A stretch of DNA of 64,000 nt from Dehalococcoidia bacterium (GCA_965207695.1 CBDBNA010000005.1:121144-185143); one strand, 5' to 3'. Counted from the stretch's first letter, positions 10,413 through 49,019 are shown. Numbers and translations are program-made. Notes: a model not told the origin generated them from the sequence alone.

Positions 10413-10463
10413 CATGGCCGCAGGTCGCAGAGCGACGTCCCAGGAAGGGATCCGACGTGCCCG

Positions 10464-11108
10464 ATGAACCGCAGTCCGCTCAGCCGCCTCCTCCACATCC
10501 GCCGCCTTCGTCGAACCCCGGCAGGATTCTCAGGGACGCTGGACAACCCCGGCGTCAGGCGAATAACGAACTCCGCTGACGACGCCGTGGACCCCGCTGA
10601 TGATCCGGGCGTCCCCCCGCCCCACGCTGCGCAGTCATTCGATCCCGAGAACTACCCGAGCCTCGACTTGGCGTTCCGGCAAGGCGTGCGCTCGTACTCG
10701 CAAGTCGCCGCCCGACTCACGGCCGTCCACGGACGGATCGATGCCCTTCAGTGGGCTGTGATATGGCTGACGGTCGCGTTCCCGATCGGTGTGCGGGCAG
10801 CCGACGGGGCCGCGAGCTTCACATCGGGATTCGCCATCGCTGCGTTCGCGTTGGCGGGAGTCACAGTCTTCCTGGGGCTGGCAGCCCGCGCATGGTCTGG
10901 AATGACGCTGGTCAACCCCGCCCGTCTCTACGCGCACTGGCTCCACCTGCCCGAAAAGGAGTTCAAGCTCCGCAGTCTCTATTGGGCGGGCCAGCACTTC
11001 GAAGAGAACTCCCGGGCCGTGAACCGGAAGTCGTTGCTTGCGTCGCTCATGGTCCTACTCCTGCTCGTCGAAGTCGGGCTGTTCGTCGCCTGGTTCGCGA
11101 GCACGTAG
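10464..11108 (+). CDS. Hypothetical membrane protein (start could instead be the in-frame ATG at 10413)
   Basis: Three to four predicted TM segments (WAVIWLTVAFPIGV, FAIAAFALAGVTVFLGLAA, LLASLMVLLLLVEVGLFVAWF). Lower GC (about 60%). The long 5' extension in the ORF track overlaps the trkH 5' end and is unlikely to be real. Confidence 0.45.
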   Translation: MNRSPLSRLLHIRRLRRTPAGFSGTLDNPGVRRITNSADDAVDPADDPGVPPPHAAQSFDPENYPSLDLAFRQGVRSYSQVAARLTAVHGRIDALQWAVIWLTVAFPIGVRAADGAASFTSGFAIAAFALAGVTVFLGLAARAWSGMTLVNPARLYAHWLHLPEKEFKLRSLYWAGQHFEENSRAVNRKSLLASLMVLLLLVEVGLFVAWFAST

Positions 11109-11139
11109 AGGCCGCTCCGGGCCTCCTTCCAGGCGCCTT

Positions 11140-11238
11140 GGGAGCCCCTTGGGAGCCCCTTCCGGACCCCTTCTGCACCCCTTCTGCACCCCTTCCGGAC
11201 CCCTTCTGCACCCCTTCTGCACCCCTTCCGGACCCCTT
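11140..11238. repeat. Perfect 11-bp tandem repeat array, 9 units (GGGAGCCCCTT x2; then [CCGGACCCCTT CTGCACCCCTT CTGCACCCCTT] x2 + CCGGACCCCTT), giving a 33-bp higher-order period
   Basis: Read directly from the sequence. Intergenic: 32 bp after the stop at 11108 and about 100 bp before the 11338 start. Confidence 0.95.
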
Positions 11239-11337
11239 GACGGACGAACGGACAACCCGCTACGATCATCCACAGAACCGCGTAACGCGTTCTGAGGCAC
11301 TTCGCGAACAATAGCTCGTCCCGACGCACGGGAGCCA

Positions 11338-12012
11338 ATGAGAGGCCCTCGTGTGTCCACTTCCATCGACGACCAACTACCCGATCCGCTGCCCGTCCGC
11401 GCCCGCAAGTGGGGCGCCGGCCCCCGCGTCCAGGAGCGCCTGCGCTCCGTCGCCGACCTCCGTCGGCGCGGCCTCGGGCGAGCCGAGATCGCCGCGAAAC
11501 TCGGCGTCTCCCCACCGACGATCTCCCGCGACCTGGCCCGCGTCGACCTGATCGAGCAGCACCAAGAGGCCGAGTTCGTGCACACGCAGCAGATCGAGTG
11601 CCTACTCTCCCTGCGCGAGCTCACGCTGGTCTGCTGGCACGTCATCTCCCGCTACCGCTACGACCCGGACCGCATCGCCGACATGGCCGCCGTCGCGAGC
11701 GTCGTCGTCGCCGCGCAGCGCGAGGCCGGGCGCATTCTCGCCGGCTCCCGAGACCCCAACGCCGGCGACTCCGACGGCGAGAATCGGGAGGACCAAGACA
11801 TAACCGAGGGAGAAACCCTCCTGATGAGCCTTCTCAACATCCAGAGACCCGATTATGGAGAGGGCGAGATCGCCGATCTGCGTCGGGCCGTCGACGCCGA
11901 TTTCTCCCGTTACCTGAAACCCTCCCGGCTCGCCGTCATCCAGCGCGGCCTGGCCCTCGTTCAACGCGACGCCCCCGACGCGCTGACGAACGCCGCCGCG
12001 CCCGACGACTGA
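11338..12012 (+). CDS. Hypothetical HTH-domain protein (sigma-70 region-4 / small-terminase-like helix-turn-helix), 224 aa
   Basis: LRRRGLGRAEIAAKLGVSPPTISRDLARV is a classic HTH. GC drops to about 52% in the 3' half. Bracketed by tandem-repeat arrays. Confidence 0.5.
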   Translation: MRGPRVSTSIDDQLPDPLPVRARKWGAGPRVQERLRSVADLRRRGLGRAEIAAKLGVSPPTISRDLARVDLIEQHQEAEFVHTQQIECLLSLRELTLVCWHVISRYRYDPDRIADMAAVASVVVAAQREAGRILAGSRDPNAGDSDGENREDQDITEGETLLMSLLNIQRPDYGEGEIADLRRAVDADFSRYLKPSRLAVIQRGLALVQRDAPDALTNAAAPDD

Positions 12013-12058
12013 CGCCGCGGCGCCGGCGCGGGCCCCGGCCGAAAAAAATGGCCGATTT

Positions 12059-12088
12059 CCTGCAAATTCCTGCAAATTCCTGCAAATC
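12059..12088. repeat. 10-bp tandem repeat x3 (CCTGCAAATT CCTGCAAATT CCTGCAAATC), preceded by an A7 run
   Basis: Read directly. Low-GC, 47 bp after the stop of the HTH gene. Confidence 0.9.
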
Positions 12089-12189
12089 GGCTCCCGGCGT
12101 TCGCTTCGCGGACCTCAAGATCCCCGCCGGCCCACACTGACCGACTCCGTCCCGGCACGATCCCGGGCCCCCGCCCGAGCCCCGCCGGC

Positions 12190-13239
12190 TCAGGCCTCCT
12201 CGCCCTCCCGGAAGCGCTGCTCGAAGCGGGCGCAGGCCTCGCGCAGGGCGTCCTCGGCCTCGATCCCTTGACGACGCATCAGGTCGCCCATCGCGAACAG
12301 GAGATCGCCGAACGCTCCAGACGCCTCCCCCCCGTCGGCGGCCCCAGCCAACGCCGCCGTCAGCGCCTCCGATAGCGCCGCCGGGACGTCGGCCGGGTCC
12401 CCTCCGGCGCCCCCCCGCGCCGCCCGGCCCGACAGTCGCTGCGCCCGCGCCAGGGCCGGCAGCGCCGCCGGGACGCCGTCGATCGCCGACTTTGCCCGCC
12501 CCCCGCCCGCCTTCCGCTCCTCCGCCTTCAGCGCCTCCCAGTTGCGCTCGACCTCGCCGGGCGTGGCCGCCTGCTCCTCCCCGAAGACGTGCGGGTGACG
12601 GCGCACCAGCTTCGCCCGGATGCCCTCCGCGACGTCGCCCAGCGTGAAGTCGCCCGACTGCTCGGCCAGGCGGGCGTGCAGCACGATCTGCATCAGCAGG
12701 TCGCCCAGCTCCTCGCGCAGGGCGTCGCGTGCCTCGGGGCCGGCGTCCGGCCGGGCCAGCCCGTCGAGCGCCTCCAGGACCTCGTACGTCTCCTCGAGCA
12801 GGTGCGGCCGCAACGACGCGTGGTCCTGGGCCAGATCCCAGGGGCACCCCCCCTCGGGGTCGCGCACGCGCCGGATGACCCCCACCAGCCCCCGCAGGTC
12901 GCCGCGCACCTCCTCGGCCGGCAGGGCCGGCAGCGCCAGCGCGATGAGCCCATCCTCCTCCCAGCCACGGCTCTCCGCGACGGCCCCAGCCGTGCTCGGC
13001 TGCCCCGCCGCGGCCCCGCCCGCGCCGTCGGACAGGAGCGGCCTGACGGGTGTCTCCGGCGGGTACTTGGCCAGCAGCGCCGATGGGTCTCCCGCCCCCC
13101 CGGCCAGCACGATCGTCGCCAGCGTCGCGTCGGCCTCGGCGCAGCGCGCCGCCGCCACGACCTGCACACCGGCCGCGGCGTCGATGCCCGCCGCCGCTAG
13201 CAGCGCGTCGATCGGGACGGGCGCGGGGTCGGTCGGCAT
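12190..13239 (-). CDS. mazG: Nucleoside triphosphate pyrophosphohydrolase MazG (tandem MazG domains) with an N-terminal extension
   Basis: CPWDLAQDHASLRPHLLEETYEVLEAL, then a second EEL(G)DLL(F/M)Q/A motif. Ala-rich linker. Confidence 0.8.
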   Translation of the reverse strand: MPTDPAPVPIDALLAAAGIDAAAGVQVVAAARCAEADATLATIVLAGGAGDPSALLAKYPPETPVRPLLSDGAGGAAAGQPSTAGAVAESRGWEEDGLIALALPALPAEEVRGDLRGLVGVIRRVRDPEGGCPWDLAQDHASLRPHLLEETYEVLEALDGLARPDAGPEARDALREELGDLLMQIVLHARLAEQSGDFTLGDVAEGIRAKLVRRHPHVFGEEQAATPGEVERNWEALKAEERKAGGGRAKSAIDGVPAALPALARAQRLSGRAARGGAGGDPADVPAALSEALTAALAGAADGGEASGAFGDLLFAMGDLMRRQGIEAEDALREACARFEQRFREGEEA

Positions 13240-16357: not shown

Positions 16358-18333
16358 GAGGGGGCCTCTCCGTTTGTAGCGCCGGTCGTAGCGCCGTTCG
16401 TAGCGCCGTTCGTACCGGCCGATGGATGCGTCGCCGGGTCGGGCGTCGCGACGCCCGCCGGGGCGTGCAGCGCGCGTCCCCGCGCGTGACTCTCCAACAC
16501 CTGGGCGGCAGGCGAGGACTCGTCATCCGGCGTCCCGTGCGAGCCGTCCCGGGCGAGGTCGTAGGCGGCATCGTGCAGGGGCCGCGCACCGAGTTCGCGC
16601 TGCTTCTCGGCGAGCAGCCGCGCGTGCTCGCGCGCATCCTCCTGCATATGGAGGTGGCGGATGTTCCCGGCGATGTCCCGCGCCGCGACGCCCGGCTCGG
16701 CCAGCAGCGGCGGCGCGACGGGCCGCGCCCGCAGTTCCTCCGCCAGGGCCCCCAACTCACCCTCCCGCGATGCCGCGTCCTCGCCCGCCAGCAGCGAGCG
16801 CAGCAGTTCCCGCCGCAGCGCGTCGGGCACGAAGCCGGGCGTGCCGGCGTCCACCTCTGCGGCGGCGGCCGGGCCGTGCTGCAGCAGCGTGATCAGCGTC
16901 TCGGCGTGCTTGTCGATGCGCGTCAGCCGGCGGCGGGGCGGCGGCGCGGCGGCCGCTTCCGGGCGCGCGGCCGGCCCCGGCGAGGCCCGCAGGTGCGGCG
17001 GCACTTCGGCGATGCTGGCCCGCCGCCGCAGCGTGTCCACGTCGATTCGGCACATCTGCGCCAACCGCTGCATGTACTCGGCCCGCACGATCGGGTCGCT
17101 CGTCGCGGCGACCAGCGGCAGCAACTCCCCCATCAGCACGCTGCGCGCGCGGGGGTCCTCCAGGTCGTGCGCCTCGCGCCCGCGCCGGAAGCGATAGTCG
17201 AGGTAGCCCGGCGCCTCCCGCACCAGCGCCGACCAGCGCTCCGGGTCGAGCCGGATCAGGTCGTCGGGGTCGCGGTCCGGCGGCAGCTCGATGATGCGGA
17301 TGTCGGCCGCCAGCGTGTTCTGCATCCGCACCAGGCCCCGCGCCGTCACGACCGGCCGCGGCTCCGTGCCCACGGCCTCGCGCGCCGTGTCGATGCCGCG
17401 CACGGTCGCCGCCGCGCCCGCCGCGTCGGCGTCGAGCGCGAGCAGGATCTTGCGCGTCAGCGGCTTGATCAGCGCCACTTGCCGCTCCGTCAGCGCCGTC
17501 CCCATCGACGCGACGACGTGCGTCTGCTCGTGCTGGTGGGCGGCGATCACGTCCATGTAGCCCTCGACGACGATCACGTGGTCGGCGCGGCGGATGTCGT
17601 CGCGGGCGCGGTCCAGGCCGTAGAGCAGCGAACTCTTGTCGAACAGCGGCGTCTGCGGCGTATTGAGGTACTTGACATCCGAGTCGTCGAGGGCGCGCGC
17701 GCCGAATCCGACGCAGCGGCCCTGCGGGTCGCGGATGGGGAAGATCAGCCGGCCGCGGAAGCGGTCGCGGACGGGACCCTCCCCCTCGACGCTGAGCCCG
17801 GCGGTCGCGATCTCCTCCGCGCTGTAGCCCCGCGCCGACAGGTAGCCGCGCAGCGCGTCGGGCGCCGCCGGGGCGTAGCCCAGGCCGAACTGCTCCGCCA
17901 CCGCGTCGGGCACGCCGCGCCGTTCGAGGTAGCCGCGCGCCTCCGCCGCCTCCGCGTCCGCGAGGCTGCGGCGGTAGAAGCGCGCCGCCGCCTCGTTGAC
18001 GCTGCGCAACCGTCCCAGCCGCTTCTGGCGCTCCTCGGCCTGGGCGTCCATCGGGGCCACCTGGACGCCCGCCCGCTCGGCCAGGATGCGCAGCGCCTCG
18101 CGGAACTCCACCCCCTGGCGCTTCATGACCCAGGAGAAGACGTCGCCGCCCTCGCTACAGGCGCCGAAACAGCGCCACGTCTGGCGGCTGGGGTCGACGA
18201 TGAACGAGGGCGTCTTCTCGGCGTGGAAGGGGCACAGGGCCTTGAACGTGCGGCCCGACTTGCGCAGCGCGACCGACTCGCCCACCAACTCGGCGATGTC
18301 CACCCGCGCCTTGACCTCGTCGACGACGCTCAA
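16354..18333 (-). CDS. dnaG: DNA primase DnaG
   Basis: Zinc-binding [11 protein letters not shown]; TOPRIM core ([23 protein letters not shown]). Its stop overlaps the rpoD start by 4 bp. Confidence 0.9.
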
Positions 18334-48437: not shown

Positions 48438-48467
48438 TTGACACTCTCTCGCTCCATCCGCTATATT
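48438..48467 (+). promoter_or_regulatory. Near-consensus sigma-70 promoter: TTGACA, 18-bp spacer, TATATT
   Basis: Read directly from the sequence. Sits in a low-GC spacer, which is unusual for this genome. Predicted TSS about 48474. Confidence 0.45.
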
Positions 48468-48474
48468 GTTCTCA

Positions 48475-48692
48475 TAGAACGCGTATCGCGTGTCCTGGAT
48501 CCCGACCGACACCAGCCACGGACTCGGATGAGCCCGTGAAAGAACGTGAAAGATCGTGCAAGATCCGGCAAGTTCGTGCCGGATTCGTGCTCCCAGATGC
48601 GCCCAGATGCTCCAAAATGCGCGCCGGTGCAAGCCCATGCAACCCCATGACTCCACGTGACCGGGCAAGATCCCCAGTAAACATGGGGTTTT
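48475..48692 (+). ncRNA. Candidate roughly 215-nt small RNA (unknown family) containing about 13 degenerate 10-nt periodic repeats
   Basis: Bounded by the promoter above and a hairpin + U-tract. No RBS-supported ORF. About 52% GC in a 70% GC genome. Internal units cgtgaaagaa/cgtgaaagat/cgtgcaagat/ccggcaagtt/cgtgccggatt/cgtgctccca/gatgcgccca/gatgctccaaa/atgcgcgccg/gtgcaagccc/atgcaacccc/atgactccac. Confidence 0.3.
48672..48692 (+). terminator. Intrinsic terminator candidate: CCCCAgtaaacaTGGGG + TTTT
   Basis: 5-bp GC-rich stem, 7-nt loop, T4 tract. Confidence 0.4.
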
Positions 48693-49019
48693 CGCCTCGC
48701 AGCCTCTCGCTAGGCGCCCCGCAGAAAAAAAAGTGAAGACTCAAACCGTGATCTTGATGCCCGTGACCCGCTCCGCGCCCGCGTCGTCGCTCAACTCCGA
48801 CGCCCCGGCGCCGATGTGAAGGGGTCCTAGCGCGGCCCACCCCGCCACGCCCGCGTCCCGGTTCGATATGCTCATCGCACAGGCGTGGCGGCGCCCGCGA
48901 CGGGGAGACCAAGGGGCAAGAGCGCCGTCGAATGCAGATGCACCACCGCCGCCCAGCCGGCCCGCGCGCCGCGACGGATCGTCGGTCGCGTGGCTGAGCC
49001 CGCGCACCCGCCCGGCCGC

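What the first reader, a model, noticed from the sequence alone, without database searches (positions are those of the whole stretch)
11109..11337. Perfect 11-bp tandem array (9 units, 33-bp super-repeat) in the intergenic region upstream of an HTH-protein gene
Units GGGAGCCCCTT / CCGGACCCCTT / CTGCACCCCTT repeat with no mismatch over 99 bp (11140-11238). The 11-bp period is roughly one helical turn, so the invariant CCCCTT cores all face the same side of the helix. That geometry is typical of iteron or operator arrays bound cooperatively by a dimeric DNA-binding protein, and of phage pac/cos small-terminase binding sites. The array is hypervariable-prone through slipped-strand mispairing and could act as a phase-variable spacer controlling the downstream HTH gene. 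It generates spurious proline-rich ORFs on both strands.
Basis: seen in the sequence. Interest (0 to 1): 0.6.

Follow-up and report, generated by a model that had tools for sequence, protein, structure and literature searches.

The report
Promoter-adjacent 11-bp variable tandem repeat
A real, non-coding array of nine 11-bp repeats sits directly against the promoter of a conserved regulator gene in an uncultured Chloroflexota bacterium; related genomes carry different numbers and versions of it, so it is a fast-evolving repeat locus and there is no evidence that it is a protein-binding operator or a phage packaging site.

Summary
Window 11140-11238 holds nine head-to-tail 11-bp units (xxxxxCCCCTT), with a perfect 33-bp super-repeat and two decayed units upstream (11118-11139). 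This is far beyond chance.

- **Position.** The array starts 10-30 nt after the stop codon of a co-directional 140-aa membrane-protein gene. It ends inside the -35 box (TTGACG 11237-42; -10 TACGAT 11261-66) of a promoter invariant in 13 related loci.
- **Comparison.** Distant relatives have one unit (CCGACCCCTT|GACG) or none. One clade has 6-12 units, with 95-163 bp between stop codon and -35. Unit order, number and in some lineages unit sequence differ; flanks are conserved. This is a VNTR grown from the 11-mer next to the -35 box.
- **What is conserved.** Position, the ~11 (or 21) bp register and a C-rich, G-poor sense strand. The array has the best Rho-loading-like window in 64 kb and the only four-tetrad G-quadruplex motif.
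- **Rejected.** Phage pac/cos, plasmid iterons and coding repeats.
- **Not shown.** An operator array. The gene's own operator is more plausibly the invariant palindrome at 11319-33.
- **Phase variation.** Repeat changes cannot alter -35/-10 spacing. Two samples of one species carry identical arrays.

Ordinary kind, modest interest.

The parts
10686..11108 (+). Upstream co-directional gene: a 140-aa predicted membrane protein with no Pfam or NCBIfam family. Its stop codon TAG is at 11106-11108.
   Evidence: tblastn with the L003 orthologue covers all 140 aa at 10686-11105. There are no family hits. The gene is intact in most relatives. In L001 and L002 only the last ~40 codons remain.
11108..11125 (+). 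Short GC hairpin (GAGGCC-GCUCCG-GGCCUC) overlapping the stop codon, with no U-tail.
   Evidence: Read from the sequence. It is not called as an intrinsic terminator. The 31 nt after the stop codon are identical in the window, L134 and L003.
11118..11139 (+). Two decayed repeat units (CGGGCCTCCTT, CCAGGCGCCTT) at the 5' edge of the array.
   Evidence: Register parse anchored on the -35 box. The same two units occur in L003 and L134.
11140..11238 (+). Nine perfect-core 11-bp units (xxxxxCCCCTT). A 33-bp super-repeat spans 11156-11238. This is the VNTR itself.
   Evidence: Orthologous arrays of different length and composition are shown.
11145..11236 (-). Nine GGGG tracts separated by 7-nt loops on the minus strand. 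This is the template strand for the upstream gene.
   Evidence: It is the only G>=4, loop<=7 quadruplex motif in 64 kb. A four-layer G4 enters the minimum-free-energy fold when G4s are allowed, -56.8 against -46.9 kcal/mol with RNA parameters.
11156..11233 (+). The most C-rich, G-poor 78-nt stretch of the window (43 C, 10 G), with a C-run every 11 nt. It has the composition of a Rho utilisation (rut) site.
   Evidence: C/G is 4.30, in the top 0.003% of all 78-nt windows on both strands. The criteria are taken from PMC6407284. The RNA is no more structured than shuffles, z +0.25.
11237..11266 (+). Sigma-70-type promoter of the HTH gene: -35 TTGACG (11237-42), 18-nt spacer, -10 TACGAT (11261-66).
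   Evidence: One search found one site, against a mean of 0.0 in shuffles. TTGACG and TAnnnT are invariant in 13 loci. It is one of only four TTGAC-N16-19-TAnnnT sites in 64 kb.
11273..11294 (+). Hairpin or palindrome at the predicted 5' end of the transcript (CAGAACCGCGUAACGCGUUCUG).
   Evidence: Folding of 11272-11360 gives z -2.88. The pairing is kept in relatives with some two-sided changes. A near-identical element follows the promoter at 48438.
11319..11333 (+). Invariant palindrome TCCCG-ACGCA-CGGGA in the leader. It is the better candidate for the regulator's own operator or for a translational-control hairpin.
   Evidence: It is identical in all 13 loci down to 44% protein identity. 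It is unique in the window. It takes part in a fold that covers the GTG start.
11353..12012 (+). HTH regulator gene (219 aa; the alternative start ATG 11338 would give 224 aa).
   Evidence: Pfam HTH_23 and HTH_38. There are only 14 homologues in 5.8 billion proteins. The model shows an HTH at residues 24-60 plus a long helical hairpin, with no PDB fold match.

Best explanation
The array is a promoter-adjacent variable-number tandem repeat (VNTR).

**Origin.** The 11 bp that ancestrally lay directly upstream of the -35 box (CCGACCCCTT|GACG, still single-copy in distant relatives) were amplified. The mechanism is slipped-strand mispairing or unequal recombination. One clade of uncultured Chloroflexota now carries 6-12 head-to-tail copies.

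**Evolution.** Units are gained, lost and locally duplicated much faster than the flanks change. The perfect 33-bp triplet in this window is one recent duplication.

**Why it is tolerated.** The array lies wholly outside the core promoter. Each event also moves upstream DNA by about one helical turn. The -35/-10 geometry is therefore never touched. This makes the array a spacer rather than an on/off switch.

**What is and is not conserved.** Unit sequence is not conserved across the clade. Position, the ~11-bp register, a length of about 95-165 bp and a C-rich, G-poor sense strand are conserved.

**Most likely function, if any (inference).** The function would depend on composition and length, not on a specific sequence. 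The array would act as an untranslated C-rich insulator between the upstream gene's stop codon and the regulator's promoter. Rho could load there on read-through RNA, or the G-rich template strand could impede read-through polymerase. I put about 0.9 on the VNTR origin and dynamics, and about 0.3 on the insulator role. The remainder is effectively neutral DNA.
For: **Shown**
- The repeat is real and far beyond chance.
- The last unit overlaps a promoter whose -35 and -10 boxes are invariant in 13 loci.
- Orthologous sites have different arrays: 9 units (window), 6 (L134), 8 (L003/L004), about 10 (L006/L007), degenerate 6 (L002), heavily decayed (L001).
- Some lineages carry new unit types: GGTGGACCCCG and GGTGGAGTCCG in L135 and L136, and a 21-bp unit in L137.
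- L008, L012 and L013 have a single unit, and L009-L011 have none.
- The stop-to-(-35) distance is 95-163 bp in array-bearing lineages, against 21 bp in L009.
- Adjacent units are the most alike: 27% are identical, against 10% between arrays.
- Between the window and L003, the flanks at 11046-11135 and the leader are 93-100% identical, while the arrays differ in most units.
- Unit-number differences that are not multiples of 3 rule out coding.

**Compositional evidence**
- The best 78-nt window has C/G 4.30, the highest in 64 kb. All relatives' arrays reach 1.55-3.0.
- This meets the published rut definition: C>G over 78 nt with a C every 11-13 nt (PMC6407284).
- The array RNA is unstructured, z +0.25.
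- The array starts 10-30 nt after a co-directional stop codon.
- The array is decayed in the one lineage (L001/L002) where the upstream gene is truncated.
- It is the only four-tetrad G4 motif in the window.
Against: - A neutral repeat should not persist at one site across lineages whose synonymous sites are near saturation (third-position identity 0.66). Some selection is therefore likely, and its target is unknown.
- Within five lineages the CCCCTT core varies much less than the 5-mer: 4 core changes against at least 10 in the 5-mer among 14 unit types. That pattern fits a binding site or a G-tract requirement.
- No other gene end in the window has a C-rich 3' flank. Of 33 gene ends, none exceeds C/G 1.5. 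Rho loading zones are therefore not a general feature here.
- L009 has the same gene order and no spacer.
- Mosaic similarity between lineages means the identical flanks may reflect recombination rather than constraint.
- No transcript, read-level or protein-binding data exist for this organism.
Confidence: 0.55

Rival explanations
1. The array is a sequence-specific protein-binding platform. Its direct repeats, one per helical turn, would be bound cooperatively by a transcription factor: the adjacent HTH protein, an OmpR/PhoB-type regulator, or a head-to-tail multimer. Binding would activate or repress the abutting promoter.
For: - The spacing is 11 bp and the array abuts the -35 box.
- In five lineages a conserved 6-7 nt core (G..CCCCTT) alternates with variable positions, as in pho or ArcA boxes (PMC3798270).
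- The promoter-proximal unit (G/A)ACCCCTT is kept in every array lineage and in L008 and L012.
- The plasmid R1 parC site shows that sets of five 11-bp iterons next to a promoter can be operators (PMC2241845).
Against: - Distal units lose the core in L135, L136 and L137 while still being amplified.
- The HTH recognition helix is invariant in lineages with nine, one or no units.
- A better autoregulatory candidate exists: the invariant palindrome at 11319-33.
- No second array or pair of cores occurs in the window or in related loci.
- The promoter already has a near-consensus -35 box.
- No response-regulator gene lies in the neighbourhood.
Confidence: 0.17
2. The array is a G-quadruplex / i-motif element. 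The nine GGGG tracts on the minus strand (CCCC on the plus strand) would extrude under the negative supercoiling behind the active promoter. This would modulate the promoter or block read-through.
For: - It is the only G>=4, loop<=7 motif in 64 kb, with nine consecutive tracts.
- A G4 enters the minimum-free-energy fold of the G-rich strand.
- Four or more tracts are kept in L134, L003, L007 and L002.
- The C-runs are the least variable part of the unit.
Against: - L001 has at most three tracts even with 12-nt loops. L135, L136 and L137 need loops longer than 7 nt.
- The AA/TT next to the tract is equally conserved, which a G4 does not require.
- Seven-nucleotide loops are at the weak end of the G4 definition.
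- Extrusion from a duplex with over 70% G+C is unproven.
Confidence: 0.1
3. The array is a phase-variable (contingency) repeat. Frequent slippage within a population would switch or tune expression of the HTH gene.
For: - Perfect repeats are slippage-prone, and copy number differs among species.
- Distal repeats can tune a promoter by re-spacing upstream elements, as at nadA (PMC2791445).
Against: - The array is upstream of -35, so the -35/-10 spacer is untouched.
- Whole-turn increments preserve helical phase.
- No conserved element upstream of the array could be re-spaced. Only the stop codon and a small hairpin lie there.
- L006 and L007, from two different samples, carry identical arrays.
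- The unit is 11 nt, against 1-7 nt typical of contingency loci.
Confidence: 0.08
4. The array belongs to a mobile-element site: a phage pac/cos site bound by small terminase, or plasmid replication or partition iterons.
For: Only the geometry supports this: tandem direct repeats next to a small DNA-binding protein gene. There is a weak Pfam RepB (ParB-like) HTH hit, E 2.8e-4, below the family cutoff.
Against: - The block TrkH / 140-aa protein / HTH / MazG / Lit / Zn-ribbon / RpoD is syntenic in all relatives.
- No terminase, Rep, ParA or ParM gene is present.
- The protein has no relative in viral contigs.
- PHROGs hits are confined to the HTH.
- The fold is not terminase-like.
Confidence: 0.01

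Closest known systems
Promoter-associated variable tandem repeats, for example the TAAA tract upstream of the nadA promoter of Neisseria meningitidis (PMC2791445)
   Same: A perfect tandem tract lies upstream of the core promoter and outside the -35/-10 spacer. Its unit number differs between genomes, and slippage is the presumed mechanism.
   Different: The unit here is 11 bp, a whole helical turn, not 4 bp, so helical phase is preserved rather than rotated. No flanking operators or distal promoter elements are identified. Within-strain switching is not shown. The organism is an uncultured Chloroflexota bacterium, not a pathogen.
The parC centromere/operator of plasmid R1: two sets of five 11-bp iterons flanking the par promoter, bound by ParR (PMC2241845)
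   Same: Five or more contiguous 11-bp direct repeats lie directly against the promoter of a gene for a small DNA-binding protein.
   Different: This locus is chromosomal and syntenic. It has no ParM or ParA partner. The repeats lie on one side of the promoter only. The protein is an HTH protein, not a ribbon-helix-helix protein. The unit sequence is not conserved among relatives. The array is not predicted to be curved, whereas parC is described as strongly curved.
OmpR/PhoB-family direct-repeat sites: ArcA boxes with 2-5 repeats at 11-bp centre-to-centre spacing (PMC3798270), and pho boxes (PMC4447250)
   Same: The centre-to-centre spacing is 11 bp. A conserved core alternates with variable spacer positions. 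The repeats lie next to or overlapping the -35 region.
   Different: There are nine or more units, not 2-5. A good -35 box is present, whereas pho boxes replace it. No cognate regulator is nearby. The motif was not found at other promoters in the sequence available.
Rho utilisation (rut) sites as defined for RhoTermPredict (PMC6407284)
   Same: More than 78 nt with C much greater than G, C residues every 11-13 nt, untranslated, unstructured, downstream of a stop codon, and followed within 150 nt by a hairpin.
   Different: Natural rut sites are not tandem repeats. The presumed release zone would lie in the next gene's promoter and leader. Other gene ends in this window are not C-rich. Rho dependence is untested.
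G-quadruplex motifs upstream of promoters in GC-rich bacteria (the basis of G4PromFinder, cited in PMC6407284; otherwise from my own knowledge)
   Same: A canonical G4 motif lies directly upstream of a promoter in a genome with over 70% G+C.
   Different: There are nine tracts in a strict tandem repeat, and the motif is only partly conserved in relatives.

Membership tests
Variable-number tandem repeat (slippage-generated minisatellite) | Head-to-tail copies of one unit, beyond chance | tested here: met
Variable-number tandem repeat (slippage-generated minisatellite) | Copy number and unit order differ at the orthologous site while the flanks are conserved | tested here: met
   Arrays of 6, 8, 9 or about 10 units, degenerate arrays, one unit, or none occur between the same stop codon and the same -35 box.
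Variable-number tandem repeat (slippage-generated minisatellite) | Length polymorphism among strains or reads of one species | tested here: inconclusive
   The only same-species pair (L006 and L007, 99.3% identity) has identical arrays. No reads are available.
Phase-variable contingency promoter | The repeat lies in the -35/-10 spacer or in the reading frame, so that unit changes switch expression | tested here: not met
   The array ends at the first two bases of the -35 box. The spacer is a constant 18 nt in 12 of the 13 loci and 20 nt in L008. The array is non-coding.
Phase-variable contingency promoter | High-frequency reversible length change within a clone | not testable with these tools
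   This needs read-level or culture data.
Plasmid iterons / parC-type centromere | An adjacent Rep initiator, or a ParA/ParM NTPase with an adaptor, on a plasmid or phage | tested here: not met
   The neighbours are TrkH, a 140-aa membrane protein, MazG, Lit, a Zn-ribbon protein and RpoD, syntenic in all relatives.
Plasmid iterons / parC-type centromere | Unit sequence conserved together with its binding protein | tested here: not met
   Units drift to GGTGGACCCCG and GGTGGAGTCCG or to a 21-bp unit, while the HTH recognition helix stays invariant.
Phage pac/cos site | Terminase genes and a phage context | tested here: not met
   The fold is not terminase-like.
OmpR/PhoB-type direct-repeat operator | Two or more direct repeats at 10-11 bp centre-to-centre spacing, with a conserved core and a variable spacer | tested here: met
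   for five lineages only.
OmpR/PhoB-type direct-repeat operator | The same motif at several promoters (a regulon), and a cognate winged-helix regulator | tested here: inconclusive
   None was found in the 64-kb window or in about 100 kb of related loci. The whole genome is not available. The public scans were swamped by unrelated repeats.
Rho utilisation site | At least 78 nt with C>G and a C every 11-13 nt, untranslated and unstructured, followed by a pause hairpin | tested here: met
   C/G is 4.30, in the top 0.003%. The RNA fold has z +0.25. A hairpin lies at 11273-94. The criteria come from PMC6407284.
Rho utilisation site | Rho-dependent (bicyclomycin-sensitive) termination of the upstream transcript, and a rho gene in the genome | not testable with these tools
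   There are no transcript data and no complete genome.
G-quadruplex motif | Four or more G-runs of at least 3 with loops of 1-7 nt | tested here: met
   Nine GGGG runs with 7-nt loops on the minus strand.
G-quadruplex motif | Conserved in orthologous arrays, and formed in vitro or in vivo | tested here: inconclusive
   Four to nine tracts are present in 5 of 9 lineages, fewer in the rest. Formation is not testable here.

The most novel reading that the evidence does not exclude
The array is under selection as a helically phased element that depends on length and strand composition. It would be either an evolvable Rho-loading or G4 insulator, or a multi-site platform for a lineage-specific factor.

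It may belong to a wider system built around this orphan HTH regulator. The gene is also followed by a conserved 2-4-unit, 10-bp array (TTC[CG]TGCA[AT], 12057-87). About 13 units of that same motif occur downstream of a second strong promoter at 48438. That promoter shares the regulator's leader palindrome.
Probability: 0.15. Interest if true: 0.6.

Novelty: new member of a known kind. Interest (0 to 1): 0.3.

Why it matters
If it is only a VNTR, its value is practical. It is a strain and species marker for an uncultured Chloroflexota lineage. It is also a clean example of a repeat growing out of promoter-proximal DNA in whole-turn steps without disturbing the promoter.

If the compositional conservation reflects function, it would show that an insulator or terminator zone between two co-directional genes can be built and resized by repeat amplification. 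It would also flag a small, very narrowly distributed HTH regulator (14 homologues in 5.8 billion proteins) with an unusually elaborate control region. That region holds an invariant leader palindrome, a 5' hairpin shared with a second promoter, and periodic arrays on both sides of the gene.

Tried and rejected
**Searches that led nowhere**
- Rfam over the whole window at gathering threshold, and around the array and the 48.4-kb region at E<=10, gave nothing meaningful.
- The exact-protein lookup for the window's own protein found no contig.
It returned over 120 unrelated contigs at 25-75% G+C. Their host organisms were not identified. One, L191, carries the identical unit CTGGACCCCTT in 38%-GC DNA that may be eukaryotic.
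- These scans show that 11-bp arrays with this core are common generic minisatellites. They gave no relatives and no regulon information.
- The PDB sequence search, the structure prediction and Foldseek recognised only the HTH.

**Hypotheses tested and rejected**
- Intrinsic curvature. A wedge-model trajectory, using parameters recalled from Bolshoy and Trifonov, gave an end-to-end ratio of 0.98 for the array. The background mean is 0.985, so the array sits at about the 25th percentile. A phased A-tract control gave 0.41. The array is not predicted to be curved, although some relatives' arrays score higher.
- A structured RNA within the array: z +0.25.
- Each unit acting as a weak -35 box: only 2 of 6 matches.
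- A link to the TGCA-type 10-bp arrays at 12057 and 48535. The resemblance is limited to TTC..TGCA and needs a gap, so I do not claim homology.
- The 12-bp repeat near rpoD (16370-16414) lies at the 3' end of the upstream reading frame, and its 12-bp period would keep that frame. It is therefore probably coding and not comparable.

Full report
**Observation**

The sequence at 11140-11238 is nine contiguous 11-bp units. The units are GGGAG x2, then (CCGGA, CTGCA, CTGCA) x2, then CCGGA, each followed by CCCCTT. Tandem Repeats Finder reports a 33-bp period with 2.5 copies at 100% identity, score 166. CCCCTT-N5-CCCCTT occurs eight times, only here, and never in 100 dinucleotide-preserving shuffles. 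Two decayed units (CGGGCCTCCTT, CCAGGCGCCTT) precede the array at 11118-11139.

An 11-bp period drifts about 17 degrees per unit against a 10.5-bp helical turn. The cores therefore share a face only locally.

**Anatomy of the locus**

The array lies between two co-directional genes.

- Upstream is a 140-aa predicted membrane protein at 10686-11108 with no known family. Its stop codon is 10 nt before the first decayed unit.
- The TT of the last unit begins a sigma-70-type promoter. The -35 box is TTGACG at 11237-42, the spacer is 18 nt, and the -10 box is TACGAT at 11261-66.
- This is one of only four TTGAC-N16-19-TAnnnT sites in the 64 kb.
- In an alignment of 13 related loci the -35 hexamer and the TAnnnT of the -10 are invariant. 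I take this as the real promoter.
- The leader then contains a hairpin at the predicted 5' end (11273-94) and an invariant palindrome, TCCCGACGCACGGGA, at 11319-33.
- The leader folds better than shuffles, z -2.88, in a structure that covers the start codon.
- Homologues indicate that the gene starts at GTG 11353 and encodes 219 aa.

**The downstream protein**

- It has an N-terminal HTH (Pfam HTH_23, E 4.7e-6).
- It belongs to a very small family: 14 homologues among 5.8 billion proteins, one of them annotated as from a Chloroflexota MAG.
- The AlphaFold model has mean pLDDT 66.6, with residues about 21-130 at 72-93. It shows the HTH followed by a long helical hairpin.
- Foldseek finds no PDB match below E 0.38.
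- The protein has no relative in viral contigs, and only its HTH matches PHROGs families.

**Comparison with relatives**

Seventeen loci from metagenome assemblies carry homologues at 44-92% protein identity. They share a conserved chromosomal neighbourhood: TrkH, the 140-aa gene, HTH, MazG, Lit, a Zn-ribbon protein and RpoD. The DNA between the 140-aa gene's stop codon and the -35 box differs as follows:

| Locus | Array | Stop to -35 (bp) |
|---|---|---|
| window | 9 units | 128 |
| L134 | 6 perfect units | 95 |
| L003/L004 | 8 units, with private 5-mers GCGGG, GCGCA, CCGCA | 117 |
| L006/L007 | about 10 units | 139 |
| L002 | 6 degenerate units | 96 |
| L001 | barely recognisable | 107 |
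| L135 | distal units drifted to GGTGGACCCCG, still locally duplicated | 141 |
| L136 | distal units drifted to GGTGGACCCCG and GGTGGAGTCCG, still locally duplicated | 163 |
| L137 | an amplified 21-bp unit plus two proximal 11-mers | contig ends in the array |
| L008, L012, L013 | a single CCGACCCC(C)TT against the -35 box | different upstream gene |
| L009-L011 | none | 21 |

The promoter-proximal unit (G/A)ACCCCTT is kept in every array lineage. The array is therefore an amplification of the 11 bp that ancestrally abutted the -35 box. It is a locus of continuing unit turnover.

- Adjacent units are the most similar: 27% are identical, against 10% for units from different arrays.
- Unit types such as CTGGA, CCGGA, GGGAG and GGAAG are shared among lineages in the same 5'-to-3' order.
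- Between the window and L003, the 90 nt before the array and the leader after it are 93-100% identical, yet most units differ.
- Length differences that are not multiples of three show that the ORFs crossing the array are not genes.

**How variable is it?**

Copy number clearly differs between species-level lineages, which are 73-81% identical in nucleotide sequence to the window. The one same-species comparison available is L006 against L007, from two samples at 99.3% identity. It shows identical arrays. Rapid phase variation is therefore not demonstrated. Because the whole array is upstream of the -35 box, slippage cannot change the -35/-10 spacer. Each event also shifts upstream DNA by about one turn.

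**Is anything conserved besides position and period?**

Not the unit sequence across the whole clade. Within five lineages the CCCCTT core is much less variable than the 5-mer: about 4 core changes against at least 10 in the 5-mer among 14 unit types. A rough binomial test gives p of about 0.05. This is suggestive only, and it vanishes when L135 and L136 are included.

What is conserved is strand composition.

- The best 78-nt window in the array has 43 C and 10 G. Its C/G of 4.30 is in the top 0.003% of all windows on both strands.
- Every relative's array reaches C/G 1.55-3.0.
- This satisfies the published operational definition of a Rho utilisation site: 78 nt, C>G, C every 11-13 nt, followed by a hairpin (PMC6407284).
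- The RNA is no more structured than shuffles, z +0.25.
- The complementary strand carries nine GGGG tracts with 7-nt loops. This is the only four-tetrad G4 motif in the window, and it is thermodynamically competitive as a single strand.
- Relatives keep 3-9 tracts, and L001 fewer.
- Where the upstream gene has been truncated to its last ~40 codons (L001 and L002), the array and its 5' flank have decayed. This is one evolutionary event, so it is weak evidence.

Three observations argue against a general Rho-type function. None of 33 other gene ends in the window has a C/G above 1.5 in the 100 nt after the stop codon. L009 keeps the same gene order with no spacer. A wedge-model calculation does not predict intrinsic curvature for the array: the end-to-end ratio is 0.98 against a background mean of 0.985, and a phased A-tract control gives 0.41 (the parameters were recalled from the literature).

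**Interpretation**

I am confident (about 0.9) that this is a promoter-adjacent VNTR. It was generated by slipped-strand or unequal-exchange amplification of the -35-proximal 11-mer. It is tolerated because it lies outside the core promoter and changes in whole-turn steps.

Persistence of a 95-165-bp array across lineages whose synonymous sites are near saturation (third-position identity 0.66) suggests some selection. Mosaic similarity between lineages weakens that argument.

The only properties that track across lineages are length, register and C-rich strand bias. The most likely function, if any, is therefore a composition-dependent insulator between the upstream gene and the regulator's promoter. 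This could work through Rho loading on read-through RNA or through a template-strand G4. I put this at about 0.3.

A sequence-specific operator array remains possible (about 0.17). Three things count against it: drift of distal units, the invariance of the HTH recognition helix in lineages with zero or one unit, and the absence of the motif elsewhere in the available sequence. The invariant palindrome at 11319-33 is the better candidate for autoregulation.

Phage pac/cos and plasmid iteron readings are rejected on context.

**Comparison with known systems**

- In geometry the array resembles parC of plasmid R1, which has two sets of five 11-bp iterons next to a promoter (PMC2241845). It also resembles OmpR/PhoB-family direct repeats at 11-bp spacing (PMC3798270). 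It fails the defining context features of both.
- In behaviour it resembles promoter-distal repeat tracts such as the one at nadA (PMC2791445). The differences are a whole-turn unit and no identified flanking operators.
- It meets the compositional definitions of a rut site and of a G4 motif. Both functional tests are beyond these tools.

**Limits**

They show that such arrays are a common generic repeat type. They could not show whether this genome has more of them. No reads, transcripts or complete genome were available.

**Verdict**

This is a real, well-delimited, evolutionarily dynamic repeat of a known kind. Its functional interpretation is open, and interest is modest.

Noticed in passing
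window 12040-12095 (array at 12057-12087); also L001-L013 and L135-L137 downstream of the HTH gene: A second periodic array lies between the convergent HTH and MazG genes: TTCCTGCAAA x3. All 11 lineages compared have 2-4 units of TTC[CG]TGCA[AT] at a 10-11-bp period at the same place. Short inverted repeats flank it (GCCGATTT...AAATCGGC in the window), and a run of seven T follows on the minus strand. Unlike the upstream array, its motif is conserved down to 44% protein identity.
   Followed up: partly
window 48438-48700: A near-consensus promoter (TTGACA, 18 nt, TATATT; 11 of 12 matches) lies between alaS and a YqgF/RuvX-like gene. It is followed by the palindrome ACGCGTATCGCGT, which matches the HTH gene's leader hairpin in sequence and position. 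About 13 units of 10 nt follow (CGTGAAAGAA, CGTGCAAGAT, CCGGCAAGTT and others) with the same motif as the 12057 array. A hairpin with a short U-tail lies at 48672-95. This may be an unannotated small RNA or a long leader. There is no Rfam match.
   Followed up: partly
window 11272-11360: The HTH gene leader is unusually constrained. The 15-mer TCCCGACGCACGGGA is identical in 13 loci. Alternative pairings of its 3' arm with sequence next to the GTG start could occlude the ribosome-binding region (fold z -2.88).
   Followed up: partly
window 10457-10579; L003 2830-3290; L012 1890-2300: A small proline-rich ORF (about 40 aa in this window, about 50 in relatives, for example VPNEPKSAQPPPPP...) lies between TrkH and the 140-aa gene. 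It occurs as one copy here, two tandem copies in L003 and three in L012.
   Followed up: no
window 10686-12190 compared with L003, L134 and L135: Similarity is mosaic. L003 is the closest relative for the upstream gene, the 5' intergenic flank and the leader (93-100%), but among the most distant for the HTH protein (70%). L134 shows the reverse pattern. This suggests recombination among lineages with a breakpoint near the array.
   Followed up: partly
window 16370-16414 (minus strand): A 12-bp repeat x3.8 (GCTACGAACGGC) lies just upstream of the rpoD start. It sits at the 3' end of the preceding reading frame, and its 12-bp period keeps that frame, so it is probably a coding repeat.
   Followed up: partly
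L138-L257 (metagenome contigs): More than 120 unrelated contigs at 25-75% G+C carry four or more CCCCTT cores at an 11-bp period. One recurrent type is AAGCCCCTT-NN with a variable dinucleotide, in low-GC contigs (for example L166, L193, L210, L219, L241). Some arrays have units that contain a full TTGACA or TTGACC hexamer (L139, L163, L223). L191 has the identical unit CTGGACCCCTT in 38%-GC DNA that may be eukaryotic.
   Followed up: no
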